From positions 1-57,486 of the IMG/VR virus record IMGVR_UViG_3300027704_000029: a stretch of DNA of 57,486 nucleotides, one strand, 5' to 3'. Source of the stretch: a virus (taxonomy: Duplodnaviria; Caudoviricetes). Below are positions 50,682 to 52,459 of this stretch, piece after piece. A program made the position numbers and the translations under genes. The notes beneath the pieces were generated by a model. That model searched no databases and was not told where the DNA came from. It saw nothing but the letters and a program-made list of their open reading frames with translations. The number at the start of each line of letters is the position of its first letter. Position 1 is the first letter of the stretch.

Positions 50682-51008
50682 TTAGTCTTTTTCACAACTG
50701 CCAGGTGCGCACGGCTTAGTTCCAGGAACTCTGCTATGTCCTTTCCAACAGTTACATGTTTTTAATAAAGGGGTTTCCTTTACTTTTTTATCTCCAGGAA
50801 AAGTATATTCGTTACCTGGTTTCATTATCTTTGTGTTACCAGTAGTAGTACCGGTTCCTTTTATTGTTCCTTTTTCTAATGGAGCACCATTCTCCTCTGT
50901 CATAGTAATCTTATTAGAATCTATAACTTTAGATGCGGACGGAGTATGTCCTTTTCTATACCCATTAACTTCTCGGTAAAGAGATGGTCCTTTCATTTTG
51001 TAACTCAT
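50682..51008 (-). CDS. MAFKMKG-leader family protein with C-terminal Cys module
   Basis: Starts MSYKMKGPSLY; TPLLK then CNCWKGHSRVPGTKPCAPGSC. Confidence 0.75.
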   Translation of the reverse strand: MSYKMKGPSLYREVNGYRKGHTPSASKVIDSNKITMTEENGAPLEKGTIKGTGTTTGNTKIMKPGNEYTFPGDKKVKETPLLKTCNCWKGHSRVPGTKPCAPGSCEKD

Positions 51009-51277
51009 TACTTACAGTTACACTTTTTCTTACCACAACCACACATTTTATGAGGAGATCCTTTGTGGAACAAACCAGTTGCTCCAGCTACAGCACCCAT
51101 AGGTCCCAATGCTAATCTACCAACGTCACCGATGCCAAACTTACCATCTTTACCCATTAAAGCTCCTTTTGCAGCTCCACCTATCTTCTTTGCTAGTCCA
51201 CCAAAAAAACCTTTCATTGGAGAAGGATCAGAACATGTATTGTTCTTGCGGTTACCTTGTTTCATTTTATATCCCAT
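51008..51277 (-). CDS. MAFKMK-leader family protein with Gly-zipper-like segment
   Basis: MGYKMKQG..SPMK-GFFGGLAKKIGG...-SPHK-MCGCGKKKCNCK. Confidence 0.7.
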   Translation of the reverse strand: MGYKMKQGNRKNNTCSDPSPMKGFFGGLAKKIGGAAKGALMGKDGKFGIGDVGRLALGPMGAVAGATGLFHKGSPHKMCGCGKKKCNCK

Positions 51278-51279
51278 GA

Positions 51280-51546
51280 TTATTTCTTTTTCTCTATTTT
51301 AGCATGCTGAGCTTTCGTGTGCATTACTTTCTTACCATTTACATAATCACCTACATGCTTGCCACTTTTATCAAAAATCTTGTTTTCATCTGCACCTTCA
51401 CCGCCTTTTGTTACTCTTTGTTGAAAAGGAGATGACGTTGCTCTACCATCAGCTTGTCCATCGTATCCAGTCTTTTGATTTTTTATTGCTCCTTTCACTC
51501 CAAACCCTGAGTTGTATAGTGATGGACCTTTCATCTTGTATGCCAT
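51280..51546 (-). CDS. MAFKMKG-leader family protein
   Basis: Starts MAYKMKGPSLY; internal SSPFQQ. Confidence 0.75.
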   Translation of the reverse strand: MAYKMKGPSLYNSGFGVKGAIKNQKTGYDGQADGRATSSPFQQRVTKGGEGADENKIFDKSGKHVGDYVNGKKVMHTKAQHAKIEKKK

Positions 51547-51577
51547 AATTGTTTTGTTATATTATTATTATTACGTG

Positions 51578-52459
51578 TTATGCTATAGATTTATTACTTT
51601 TAGCTTTATAGTTCTCAGCATATTTCTTTTTATTCTTTACCTCTTTCGGTTTGCTTACATAGTCAGTACCTTTCTTTATTCCGGTTTTCGCTGTTTTCTT
51701 TACTACACCTTGAGTTACTTTTGAAGCTAGCTTCTTCCCACCTGTTTTTAGCGCTTGTTTTCCTGCAGCGTAAGCTAATTTAGTACCAGCAACTCCTTGT
51801 CCAACAACAGGTATCATCATCGCAGCGTTTAATGCCATATTCGTAGTGTGCTCTTTTACTCCTTTCTTGTCACCAGTAGCTCCAGCGTAAGCAGCTCTTC
51901 CTCCAGAAACAGCAGTATTCACTCCATCAGCTATAATACCTACACCTGGAATTGTTCCAGCAGCTGTTAAAGCGATTTGTCCAGCGTCAAGAGCATCTTT
52001 CCAACCAAACTCTAACGGAGATTTTTTAGTTTTTTTTTTAGCAGCAGCTTTAGCTAAGTTAGCATCATAAATTGCTTTACCTTTTGCATCTAAATCTTCA
52101 CGTCTAACTACATCTTCTTTTTGTTTATCTAAAAACTTCTTATCTTTTTTAGTATAACCCTTTGGAAGTGGCTTGCCATTTACTTTTTGCTTAAAAGGTG
52201 GAGAAACTCCTCCTTTAGCTGTTGTTTGAGCTTTAGTTAATGCAGTAGATTTTTTCGATGCAGCGTTATTTGATCTATCTTTCTTAATCTTCGCTTTATT
52301 ACCATTAGCATCGGGATCATTAGTGGATTTACCACCTTCATCACCTCCTGGTTTATTCTTATAAGCATTGTAAGCTGCTTTAGTAGTATTTTTACCGTTT
52401 ATCTTGTACCAATACGCACTAGCAACCTGTTTTATCGCACTATATCCTGTGTTTGCCAT
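51578..52459 (-). CDS. Modular basic protein with pre-toxin TG-like domain
   Basis: ALTAAGTIPGVGIIADGVN...TGD...NAAMMIPVVG; internal SAIKQ, SPPFKQ and SPLEF. Confidence 0.6.
   Translation of the reverse strand: MANTGYSAIKQVASAYWYKINGKNTTKAAYNAYKNKPGGDEGGKSTNDPDANGNKAKIKKDRSNNAASKKSTALTKAQTTAKGGVSPPFKQKVNGKPLPKGYTKKDKKFLDKQKEDVVRREDLDAKGKAIYDANLAKAAAKKKTKKSPLEFGWKDALDAGQIALTAAGTIPGVGIIADGVNTAVSGGRAAYAGATGDKKGVKEHTTNMALNAAMMIPVVGQGVAGTKLAYAAGKQALKTGGKKLASKVTQGVVKKTAKTGIKKGTDYVSKPKEVKNKKKYAENYKAKSNKSIA

What the first reader, a model, noticed from the sequence alone, without database searches (positions are those of the whole stretch)
50682..52459. SP-phi-K/Q motif recurs internally between discrete modules: polyprotein-like architecture
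Seen: the motif that ends the leader also recurs inside ORFs at apparent module boundaries. 51578-52459 has SAIKQ / SPPFKQ / SPLEF separating three different segments. 51280-51546 has SSPFQQ. 51008-51277 has SPMK and SPHK bracketing a Gly-rich segment, followed by a Cys peptide. 50682-51008 has TPLLK before a CNCWKG..C..C module. Inference: these are protease sites that release several small peptides from one precursor.
Basis: partly seen in the sequence, partly recalled or inferred. Interest (0 to 1): 0.75.

Follow-up and report, generated by a model that had tools for sequence, protein, structure and literature searches.

The report
Motif-punctuated modular phage proteins
A marine phage encodes about a dozen small lysine-rich proteins built from interchangeable mini-modules, each preceded by the same short Ser-Pro-hydrophobic-Lys-Gln mark; these marks may be cutting sites for a tiny phage zinc protease, but cutting has not been shown.

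Summary
The four minus-strand ORFs at 50682-52459 belong to 12 basic ORFs in the window (pI 9.5-10.1, 15-24% Lys). Each has an N-terminal tag of the M-A-F-K-M-K-G type or a shortened form, followed by [ST]-P-hydrophobic-K-Q/K. The mark also occurs internally more often than shuffles allow. It has the same residue profile inside proteins as behind the tag. In 250+ metagenomic homologues the segments it separates behave as independent cassettes: they stand alone behind a tag, change order, are inserted or dropped, and fuse, with breakpoints at or beside the mark.

Proteolysis itself is untested. I found one candidate enzyme: a 120-aa protein with invariant HExxH plus Glu and a predicted zincin fold (47116-47478). 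It carries a variant of the same tag. It is present in 78 of 120 tag-selected loci and in 6 of 6 near-complete contigs of other lineages. It is absent from three cultured relatives that also lack tagged ORFs. The reverse does not hold: many loci with this protein show no tagged neighbours.

Best reading (about 0.4): tag-directed precursors are cut at the marks. A non-cleaved docking motif and fusion relics remain live rivals.

The parts
51578..52459 (-). 293-aa basic protein (pI 10.1) with three modules. It has a short leader ending in SAIKQ (nt 52427-52441). Module 1 (YWYKINGK..) follows, then SPPFKQ (52187-52204), then module 2 (LPKGYTKKD..REDLDAKGKAIY), then SPLEF (52007-52021), then module 3 (Gly/Ala-rich, hydrophobic).
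   Evidence: In one search (324 hits at E<=1e-3) the best-matching stretches fall into three classes: query residues ~8-14 to 80-92, ~88-93 to 138-157, and ~140-156 to ~290. Alignment A2 shows the cassette between PPFK and SPL differing among homologues.
51280..51546 (-). 88-aa tagged protein. It has an extended leader ending in SSPFQQ (nt 51418-51435), followed by the module TKGGEG..GDYVNGKKVM.
   Evidence: The same module follows ESPAKQ in P0012 and P0013, where it is fused upstream of module 1.
51008..51277 (-). 89-aa tagged protein. SPMK (51212-51223) is followed by a Gly-rich module, then SPHK (51047-51058), then the Cys tail MCGCGKKKCNCK (51011-51046).
   Evidence: One search gave 23 homologues. 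In them the Gly-rich module is followed by different C-terminal modules. Among the sequences seen, the Cys tail occurs only in P0232 and P0003.
50682..51008 (-). 108-aa tagged protein. A middle module (..SN.ITM..PG.EY.FPGD) is followed by E-TPLLK (50760-50774) and then the CNCWKG..RVPGTKPCAPGSC mini-module (50685-50756).
   Evidence: One search gave 59 homologues. Of 53 CxCW modules, 38 have [ST]P-phi-x(0-2)-[KQ] within the 12 aa upstream. E78 and P80 are invariant in A3 (25 sequences). Four homologues end right after the mark, and two carry an inserted cassette there.
52920..53390 (-). 156-aa tagged protein, MAFKMKGPSLYGSPMKQ.., the first gene of the cluster.
52459..52914 (-). 151-aa very basic ORF (pI 10.8, 25% Lys) with no tag, lying between tagged genes.
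50359..50679 (-). 106-aa tagged protein, MAFKMKGSNFYGSPLKQ..
47478..47735 (-). 85-aa ORF with a compact leader, MAFKMTSPFKQ..
47116..47478 (-). 120-aa HExxH protein and candidate protease. Its tag variant is MGFKLG..TPIFRK. The HEGKH motif is at residues 58-62 (nt 47293-47307). W108 and E109 are conserved.
   Evidence: Alignment A1 has invariant H58, E59, H62, W108, E109 and A112. AF2 model: pLDDT 79.9. BFVD hits named SprT-like: E 4.3e-5 to 9.8e-4. VIA Z: 6.3 to PprI, 5.1 to SPRTN, 4.6 to selecase. Pfam hits are all below their cut-offs.
45673..47112 (-). Four further tagged ORFs: 46924-47112 (62 aa), 46443-46898 (151 aa), 46143-46439 (98 aa) and 45673-46134 (153 aa).

Best explanation
The four ORFs belong to a large, apparently undescribed family of phage proteins built like beads on a string. 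The parts are a short N-terminal tag ([FY]-K-[ML]-K-G or a shortened form), then one or more small lysine-rich or Cys-containing mini-modules. Each module is preceded by the mark [ST]-P-hydrophobic-K-Q/K.

Shown here: the tag, the mark, and its enrichment inside these proteins. Also shown: the modules are separate evolutionary units that swap, insert, drop out and fuse at the marks. A small protein with a zincin-type signature (HExxH plus Glu) carries the same tag type and is found wherever tagged ORFs were checked in near-complete contigs.

Inferred: the tag brings both the precursors and this zincin to one place. Given the crAss-like virion genes of this phage, that place is most likely the procapsid or the virion cargo space. 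There the zincin cuts at or next to each mark. This removes the tag and frees the individual basic peptides and mini-domains, which then travel with the DNA into the host. Neither the scissile bond nor the role of the freed peptides (DNA charge neutralisation, membrane attack or anti-defence) can be told from sequence.
For: (1) Tag. Nine ORFs start M[ASG][FY]KMK and three more have variants. The DNA pattern occurs 7 times in the window against 0 in 100 shuffles. The Gly7 codon uses all four codons (34/31/58/33), which points to selection on the protein.
(2) Mark behind the tag. Of 148 tag-selected ORFs, 80 have [ST]P at residues 8-35. Among those 80, position +2 is hydrophobic in 68, +3 is K in 33, and +4 is K or Q in 39.
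(3) Internal marks are enriched and have the same profile.
(4) Modularity of the 293-aa protein. Homologues of its three parts occur alone behind tags, in reverse order (P0015, P0017), fused to the module of 51280-51546 (P0012, P0013), and fused to the module of 51008-51277 (P0003, with junction TPLKQGSSPAKG). In A2 the cassette between PPFK and SPL is one of three different modules or absent, while K10, Q11, P148 and L149 stay invariant at 38-64% identity.
(5) Module counts. Module 2 has [ST]P-phi within 28 aa upstream in 19 of 25 instances. The CxCW module has the mark within 12 aa in 38 of 53. Proteins such as P0210 and P0204 have three modules, each behind a mark.
(6) Homology boundaries. 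Of 341 internal left boundaries, 79 lie at a loose mark, against 33.4 +/- 5.4 at random positions (maximum 54).
(7) Specificity. The mark occurs 90 times in 35,707 aa of small homologues and 0 times in 22,391 aa of homologues of 700 aa or more that carry the same module 3.
(8) Candidate enzyme: see the entry for 47116-47478 in parts. It is found in 78 of 120 tag-selected loci, at a median of 432 nt from another tagged ORF. In contigs of other lineages it is found in 7 of 10, and in 6 of 6 that are at least 90% complete. In three complete cultured relatives it is found in 0 of 3, and these also have 0 of 3 tag patterns.
(9) No canonical prohead protease family was found by Pfam or PHROGs among the ORFs scanned.
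(10) The three marks of the 293-aa protein lie in model segments with pLDDT below 50 (residues 1-13, 69-94, 141-179).
Against: No cleavage product, virion proteome or expression data exist for this phage or any tagged relative that I could find.

The co-occurrence runs in one direction only. Among 47 newly fetched loci in which my regex recognised the HExxH ORF (49 of 74) and the HExxH protein does not itself start MAFKMKG, only 12 have another FKMKG-type ORF within 6 kb. Among the other 35, a wider pattern finds one in only 11.

Of the 120 tag-selected loci, 92 share synteny families with the window. Much of the 78-of-120 figure is therefore shared descent, not independent association.

In the HExxH protein's own model, the TPIF of its leader is a beta-strand of the fold (residues 20-23). 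Not every [ST]P-phi is therefore a linker.

Many homologues begin directly with M-x-S-[AP]-L-K-Q and have no tag (94 of 221 have other N-termini). This is odd if the mark only serves to remove a tag.

Only 23-30% of BLAST-defined boundaries sit at a mark.

The zincin assignment rests on motifs and middling structure scores: Foldseek against PDB gave no hit at E<=1e-3, VIA Z was at most 6.3, and Pfam hits were below cut-off.

The low pLDDT of the 293-aa model may only reflect a 12-row alignment.

The closest cultured relatives lack the whole system, so it is not essential to this virion type.
Confidence: 0.4

Rival explanations
1. The mark is a short docking motif that is not cut. Each [ST]-P-phi-K-Q binds a common partner, such as the inside of the portal or capsid, packaged DNA, or the HExxH protein acting as an adaptor. 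The proteins then stay intact as multi-module chains.
For: The mark is conserved and has one profile at N-terminal and internal positions. Many proteins start directly with the mark and have no tag. Some end right after it (P0195, P0196). Both are easy to explain for a binding motif. In the HExxH protein's own model the TPIF stretch is a beta-strand, so the motif can pair as a strand. crAss-type virions hold large amounts of cargo protein, according to passages of PMC10172136 read.
Against: A docking motif need not sit exactly at module boundaries, yet cassettes are inserted and lost exactly there. In two of the four proteins that lost the downstream module, the mark has decayed (EEPVDK, EEPIKK). 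This ties its function to the module that follows. The system also comes with a protein that has an intact metallopeptidase signature.
Confidence: 0.28
2. The internal marks are relics. Every module was once a separate tagged gene. Recombination between the conserved leaders shuffles genes, and occasional gene fusions leave the end of the old leader at the junction, with no function of its own.
For: Fused and split forms of the same modules exist (P0003 against the separate gene 51008-51277; P0012 and P0013 against 51280-51546). Codon 2 of the tag is biased to GCA (108 of 156, against 26% background). Ser of the mark is TCN in 21 of 23 cases. Some constraint at the nucleotide level is therefore possible.
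Against: The marks stay invariant while the flanks vary at 38-64% identity (A2) and 52-84% identity (A3). Internal marks keep the full K/Q preference. The first half of the leader is lost in fusions while the mark is kept. Enrichment over shuffles is 7-10 fold for the stricter patterns.
Confidence: 0.15
3. These are RiPP-like precursor peptides: a conserved leader guides modifying enzymes to variable cores, some of which are Cys-rich.
For: There are many tandem small genes with a conserved N-terminus and hypervariable bodies. Two bodies end in Cys-rich peptides.
Against: The bodies are 50-280 aa, lysine-rich and built from recurrent folded-looking mini-modules. No RiPP-type enzyme family appeared in the Pfam scans of the window's ORFs that I ran. 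Not every ORF was scanned.
Confidence: 0.04
4. The motif recurs by chance in lysine-rich, low-complexity proteins.
For: The two strictest patterns give no internal hit in the window alone, and the middle pattern gives one, reached by 16 of 300 shuffles.
Against: Composition shuffles, the anchor-only profile, the contrast with other ORFs and the homologue comparisons all reject chance.
Confidence: 0.02

Closest known systems
T4 internal proteins (IPI-III, Alt) with a capsid targeting sequence, cut by the prohead protease gp21
   Same: A short conserved N-terminal tag sits on otherwise diverse proteins encoded by neighbouring genes. In T4 the tag directs packaging into the prohead core and is then removed. 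This is taken from passages of PMC3012670 and PMC7411985. The window's tagged ORFs match the 'conserved tag, diverse bodies' pattern.
   Different: Here a second element, the mark, recurs inside the proteins at module boundaries. The candidate protease is a 120-aa zincin, not a serine prohead protease. Neither packaging nor cleavage is shown. The phage is a crAss-like podovirus type, not a T4-like myovirus.
Head and ejection-protein processing in giant phages (SPN3US gp245, AXE sites)
   Same: Many virion proteins are cut at one short consensus motif by a dedicated phage protease, and propeptides are thought to target proteins into the prohead (passages of PMC7411985).
   Different: The motif, the protease class and the protein sizes all differ. 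There the cuts remove long propeptides from large proteins. Here the marks would separate mini-modules of about 25-150 aa.
Minimal zincins: SprT-like/Spartan/Wss1, IrrE/PprI (M78-like), and minigluzincins (selecase, abylysin)
   Same: The size is about 100-120 aa. The protein has HExxH plus a downstream Glu, with a predicted beta-sheet and active-site helix. The best structural matches are to exactly these groups.
   Different: No sequence-family membership was obtained: Pfam scores are below cut-offs and the PDB profile search gave E 0.25. The family has its own conserved C-terminal ..PWE.EAY and the phage tag at its N-terminus.
PhicrAss001 cargo proteins
   Same: The window encodes a protein with crassvirus muzzle domains above Pfam cut-offs, plus a large terminase and portal of related PHROGs. 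Crassvirus virions store megadaltons of cargo protein (passages of PMC10172136).
   Different: The described cargo proteins are large (60-277 kDa). That paper's main text contains no words beginning cleav-, proteoly- or protease. No small tagged proteins are described there.
Multi-core precursors with repeated recognition sequences (adenovirus core-protein precursors cut by a DNA-dependent protease; cyanobactin and neuropeptide precursors). This comparison is recalled, not taken from any call.
   Same: Several products come from one chain, each flanked by the same short recognition sequence. In adenovirus, basic DNA-bound precursors are matured inside the capsid.
   Different: The motifs, enzymes and organisms are unrelated. 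This is an analogy only.

Membership tests
CTS-tagged phage internal proteins (T4 type) | A short conserved N-terminal tag shared by otherwise unrelated proteins | tested here: met
   Nine ORFs plus three variants in the window. 151 ORFs in 120 IMG/VR loci.
CTS-tagged phage internal proteins (T4 type) | The tag is removed by the prohead protease at a consensus site | not testable with these tools
   A consensus [ST]P-phi-K-Q follows the tag. Cleavage is unknown.
CTS-tagged phage internal proteins (T4 type) | The proteins are packaged in the head and ejected | not testable with these tools
   No proteome is available. The cultured relatives lack the system.
CTS-tagged phage internal proteins (T4 type) | A serine prohead protease of the T4 gp21/HK97 kind is encoded | tested here: inconclusive
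   No such family was found in the Pfam and PHROG scans of the ORFs examined. Absence from profile searches is not proof.
Zincin metallopeptidases (for ORF 47116-47478) | HExxH motif conserved | tested here: met
   H58, E59 and H62 are invariant in 16 sequences.
Zincin metallopeptidases (for ORF 47116-47478) | A third metal ligand downstream (Glu in gluzincins) | tested here: inconclusive
   W108 and E109 are invariant. A ligand role is inferred only.
Zincin metallopeptidases (for ORF 47116-47478) | Zincin fold | tested here: inconclusive
   AF2 pLDDT 79.9. VIA top rows are almost all zinc peptidases, but Z is at most 6.3. BFVD gave 7 hits at E<=1e-3, three of them named SprT-like. Foldseek against PDB gave none at E<=1e-3.
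Zincin metallopeptidases (for ORF 47116-47478) | Pfam family membership (SprT-like, Peptidase_M78, M90, eCIS_core) | tested here: not met
   Peptidase_M90 scored 14.1 bits against a 26.2 cut-off. eCIS_core scored 13.1 against 22. It is therefore filed only as an unclassified zincin-like protein.
Zincin metallopeptidases (for ORF 47116-47478) | Proteolytic activity | not testable with these tools
   -
Polyprotein or multi-core precursors | The same recognition sequence flanks each unit | tested here: met
Polyprotein or multi-core precursors | The units are released by cleavage | not testable with these tools
Crassvirales-like virion (context) | Muzzle protein domains | tested here: met
   PF25731 scored 42.4 bits (cut-off 27) and PF25729 scored 33.3 bits (cut-off 27) in ORF 20871-28622.

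The most novel reading that the evidence does not exclude
A self-contained phage 'peptide factory'. A minimal SprT-like zincin carries the same address tag as its substrates. It is switched on where DNA and substrates meet, for example in the filling capsid. It cuts lysine-rich precursors at every S-P-phi-K-Q mark and releases dozens of different small basic peptides and Cys mini-domains that are injected with the genome. The marks double as standard junctions, so phages can exchange peptide cassettes freely in an arms race with their hosts.
Probability: 0.25. Interest if true: 0.85.

Novelty: new variant of a known kind. Interest (0 to 1): 0.72.

Why it matters
If the marks are cleavage sites, this would be a protease-and-substrate system in marine Bacteroidota phages that is not described in the literature I could search. 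It would have three notable features. The maturation enzyme would be a 120-aa zincin, not a serine prohead protease. One address tag would be shared by the enzyme and about a dozen substrates per genome. A standard junction would let mini-modules be exchanged like cassettes. It would also give a directly testable handle (tag plus mark) for loading foreign proteins into crAss-like virions, as the T4 tag does for T4. Even if the marks are not cut, the family is a clean natural example of domain shuffling at a fixed short linker.

Tried and rejected
Searches that gave nothing.
- blastn (distant mode) of 50300-53500 against the phage collection found no match.
- tblastn of the 293-aa protein, the HExxH protein, ORF 45673-46134 and a 27-aa leader piece against the same collection found no match. 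The low-complexity filter was on, and the window's own record may have been withheld.
- tblastn of 50682-51008 gave only weak hits (E 0.4) to its CxCW part in cyanomyoviruses.
- Pfam and PHROGs on the small ORFs gave nothing above thresholds.
- PHROGs on neighbours of tagged ORFs in a second lineage were uninformative: 1 of 9 had any hit.
- The promoter and terminator scan was uninformative: 38 promoter-like sites against 30.0 +/- 5.3 in shuffles, and 6 terminator-like sites against 4.6 +/- 2.6. Bacteroidota promoters are not covered by that scan.

The complex prediction of the HExxH protein (residues 16-120, alignment A1) with residues 1-40 of ORF 52920-53390 returned no verdict (score 0.02, mark 0.32). 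It counts neither for nor against binding.

The Atlas gave a lead that module 3 resembles the PT-TG pre-toxin domain (feature score 0.85, lead only). Pfam did not support it in 0 of 10 module-3 homologues.

The two giant ORFs of the window have no mark of the middle pattern and no BLAST similarity to the tagged ORFs.

The chance and RiPP readings were considered and set low; see Rival explanations.

The claim that the HExxH protein always accompanies tagged ORFs was weakened by the reciprocal test. One of the two search patterns was the tag itself, so only loci whose HExxH protein lacks that exact tag were counted. My regex recognised the HExxH ORF in only 49 of 74 new loci, and the other 25 were left out of that count.

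Literature. Full-text searches for the strings MAFKMKG, FKMKG and GSSPAKQ found 0 papers each. The search 'crAss-like + cargo proteins + proteolytic + N-terminal' found 0. The search 'SprT-like + bacteriophage + virion + metalloprotease' found 2 papers that looked unrelated from title and abstract start. I therefore say only that I found no description. Subscription journals and supplements were not searchable.
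Full report
WHAT THE WINDOW IS. The window is a whole virus record of 57,486 bases. Nearly all genes from about 53.4 kb down to 3.8 kb lie on the minus strand. They include:
- a large terminase at 36438-38654 (PHROG 6681, E 2.8e-171);
- a portal at 34031-36436 (PHROG 6547, E 4.4e-140);
- a capsid-type structural protein at 31428-32888;
- a 2583-aa protein with crassvirus muzzle domains above Pfam cut-offs;
- a 3183-aa ORF with no family;
- collagen-like fibre proteins;
- GroEL- and GroES-like ORFs at 48428-49993 and 48168-48458. 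These were named from their translations and from annotated counterparts in relatives. I did not run a family search on them.

By terminase and capsid protein, the nearest records in the phage collection are MW202828.1 (64% TerL identity), Maribacter phage Panino, the Flavobacterium 'elemo' phages and Cellulophaga phi38:1/phi40:1. The host is therefore probably a marine Flavobacteriia member (inference).

THE OBSERVATION. The region 50682-52459 holds four tightly packed minus-strand ORFs.

The four ORFs are part of a larger set. Nine ORFs of the window begin M[ASG][FY]KMK. Three more have variants: MAFKMTSPFKQ at 47478-47735, MGFKLG..TPIFRK at 47116-47478, and MANTGYSAIKQ at 51578-52459. The 20-base degenerate pattern for the tag occurs 7 times in the window and 0 times in 100 shuffles. 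All twelve proteins are basic (pI 9.5-10.1, 15-24% Lys), against 7.2% Lys in 30 other ORFs.

IS THE MARK REAL? I took 148 complete ORFs from IMG/VR that were selected only by the tag's DNA pattern. Of these, 80 have [ST]P at residues 8-35. In those 80 the next residue is hydrophobic in 68, then K in 33, then K or Q in 39. The consensus is G-x-[ST]-P-phi-K-[QK].

Beyond residue 35 the mark is still enriched over composition shuffles, in these ORFs and in the window. Without requiring K or Q, internal [ST]P-phi sites show the same K(+3) and Q(+4) preference as tag-proximal ones. Mark density is 3.31 per 1000 aa in the tagged ORFs and 0.14 in the window's other ORFs. It is 2.5 per 1000 aa in small homologues and zero in 22,391 aa of large proteins that contain the same module 3. 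Chance is excluded for the family. For the window alone the support is weaker: 4 loose hits against 0.57 expected.

ARE THE SEGMENTS MODULES? An exhaustive HMMER search with the 293-aa protein gave 324 hits at E<=1e-3. Their best stretches fall into three classes that start just after SAIKQ, at SPPFKQ, and at SPLEF. A search restricted to shorter proteins returned 31 hits, among them:
- module 1 alone behind a full tag and mark (P0006, P0009);
- module 2 alone behind a tag (P0014, P0032);
- module 2 before module 1 (P0015, P0017);
- the module of ORF 51280-51546 fused before module 1 (P0012, P0013);
- module 1 fused to the Gly-rich module and Cys tail of ORF 51008-51277, with two marks at the junction (P0003).

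Module 2 is preceded by [ST]P-phi within 28 residues in 19 of 25 instances, module 3 in 24 of 42, and module 1 in 23 of 69. Many of the remaining module-1 cases follow another module that itself follows a mark. In an alignment of 12 collinear relatives (A2), the stretch between PPFK and SPL holds module 2, either of two other modules, or nothing, while K10, Q11, P148 and L149 are invariant.

For ORF 50682-51008 (59 homologues):
- E78 and P80 of E-T-P-L-L-K are invariant in 25 sequences (A3);
- two homologues have an extra cassette inserted exactly after the mark, followed by a second mark;
- four homologues end right after the mark;
- 38 of 53 CxCW modules have a mark within 12 residues upstream, and most of the other 15 show a degenerate P-x-K/Q-K.

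For ORF 51008-51277 (23 homologues), the Gly-rich module keeps SP[MN]K or a ..PF[LI]G variant in front. It is followed by several unrelated tails.

Across 341 BLAST-defined internal homology boundaries, 79 lie at a loose mark, against 33.4 +/- 5.4 for random positions. The enrichment is clear, but most fuzzy BLAST boundaries do not sit on a mark.

I conclude that the marks punctuate independently evolving cassettes.

A CANDIDATE ENZYME. ORF 47116-47478 (120 aa) has HEGKH. With 15 relatives from the tag-selected loci it forms a family with invariant H58, E59, H62, W108, E109 and A112, and with its own version of the tag.

The structural evidence is as follows. The AlphaFold model (pLDDT 79.9) has a small sheet, a long helix bearing HExxH, and a C-terminal helix. 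Viral predicted structures named SprT-like match at E 4.3e-5 to 9.8e-4. Against solved structures, the VIA search lists almost only zinc peptidases at the top, but with middling Z: PprI 6.3, SPRTN 5.1, selecase 4.6, abylysin 4.5, Wss1 4.4. Foldseek against PDB has no hit at E<=1e-3. The profile search of PDB sequences gives selecase at E 0.25. Pfam hits are below cut-off. The Atlas's nearest named clusters are zincin families at lead-level scores only. I therefore call it an unclassified zincin-like protein.

The distribution evidence is as follows. An HMM of the family finds it in 78 of the 120 tag-selected loci, at a median of 432 nt from another tagged ORF on the same strand (62 of 78 have one). 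However, 92 of the 120 loci share synteny families with the window, so this is largely one lineage. In ten contigs from the 28 loci without that synteny, the family is present in 7, and in all 6 that are at least 90% complete. The three complete cultured relatives have neither the family (0 of 3) nor the tag pattern (0 of 3).

The reverse test weakens the link. Among newly fetched loci in which my regex recognised the HExxH ORF (49 of 74), and whose HExxH protein does not start with the exact tag, 12 of 47 have another FKMKG-type ORF within 6 kb. A wider pattern rescues 11 of the remaining 35. The enzyme family is therefore wider than the tagged-ORF family, or the substrates lie elsewhere in those genomes.

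MECHANISM. The pattern has three parts: one tag per polypeptide, one mark per module, and a tag-bearing metallopeptidase-like protein. This pattern is what a targeting-plus-processing system predicts. It parallels the T4 capsid targeting sequence and the motif-directed processing of head proteins in giant phages (passages read). The crAss-like virion genes and the known cargo capacity of such virions (passages read) make the virion interior the most likely site. Two weaker points are compatible with this: the marks of the 293-aa protein lie in low-confidence model segments, and no canonical prohead protease was found.

Nothing here shows a cut, a packaged protein or an active enzyme. Several facts fit a non-cleaved docking motif equally well; see Rival explanations. 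I put the cleavage model at about 0.4, docking at about 0.28 and relic junctions at about 0.15.

COMPARISON AND NOVELTY. The system works most like T4's tagged internal proteins, but it fails or cannot be tested on the defining features of that family (see Membership tests). I found no description of the tag, the mark or the pairing with the small zincin in the searchable literature. The crAss001 atlas's main text does not mention proteolysis. I rate it a new variant of a known kind (tag-directed phage proteins with a consensus processing or junction motif). It is of high interest because it is frequent in marine viral contigs, compact and directly testable.

Noticed in passing
window 48168-49993 (-): The phage encodes GroEL-like (521 aa) and GroES-like (96 aa) ORFs that sit between the two clusters of tagged ORFs. 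Counterparts are annotated in MW202828.1 and Maribacter phage Panino. They are among the commonest families in the tag-selected loci (47 and 50 of 120).
   Followed up: partly
window 20871-28622 (-) and 8649-18200 (-): A 2583-aa protein has crassvirus muzzle domains. A 3183-aa ORF has no Pfam family. Neither contains the mark or resembles the tagged ORFs.
   Followed up: partly
window 50685-50756 (-); L122:274-1845; L124-L133: The Cys mini-module C.CW.G..RVPGTKPCAPGSC also occurs inside 148-1006-aa open frames of other viral contigs. A look-alike (E 0.4) occurs in a 523-aa protein of cyanomyovirus S-RIM8, next to DUF6321. In those proteins the [ST]P-phi-K mark is mostly absent.
   Followed up: partly
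proteins P0012-P0172, e.g. P0017, P0095, P0062: Two further N-terminal leader types end in the same mark. One is M-[AG]-F-K-L-[KR]-S-G-N-x3-F-K-x-M-G-S-S-P-A-K-Q (31 of 221 small homologues). The other is M-[AP]-Y-x-Q-x-F-G-x-x-R-x-S-P-L (10 of 221).
   Followed up: partly
window 51578-52020 (-), module 3; P0071, P0072, P0078 and others: The hydrophobic Gly/Ala-rich module 3 also lies inside 800-1700-aa proteins, one of which has a LysM domain. The Atlas gives a lead-level likeness to the PT-TG pre-toxin domain (0.85), which Pfam does not support (0 of 10).
   Followed up: partly
window 45280-45672 (-): A 130-aa ORF has a sub-threshold match to the 3-TM holin family (22.4 bits against a 24.8 cut-off). 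It lies directly downstream of the second cluster of tagged ORFs and is conserved in 72 of 120 tag-selected loci. A lysis-related role for some cationic tagged peptides is conceivable but untested.
   Followed up: no
window 52459-52914 (-): A 151-aa ORF with no tag but the most basic composition of the cluster (pI 10.8, 25% Lys) has its stop codon directly abutting the start of the 293-aa gene.
   Followed up: no
MW202828.1, KC821614.1, PP540027.1 (L121, L123, L136): The closest cultured or named relatives by TerL and capsid protein lack the tag, the mark-bearing ORFs and the HExxH family altogether. The whole system is therefore an accessory block gained or lost as a unit.
   Followed up: yes
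tag codon 2 in 156 tag instances (window and L001-L120): Ala at codon 2 is GCA in 108 of 156 cases, against 26% GCA elsewhere in the same ORFs. GCC is never used. This may reflect a preference at translation initiation in hosts that lack Shine-Dalgarno pairing.
   Followed up: no
window 3811-4266 (-), 33-716 (+), 1596-3488 (+): An M15 peptidase (likely the endolysin), a MazG-like pyrophosphohydrolase and a ribonucleotide reductase fragment-like ORF are present. These are ordinary phage genes.
   Followed up: no
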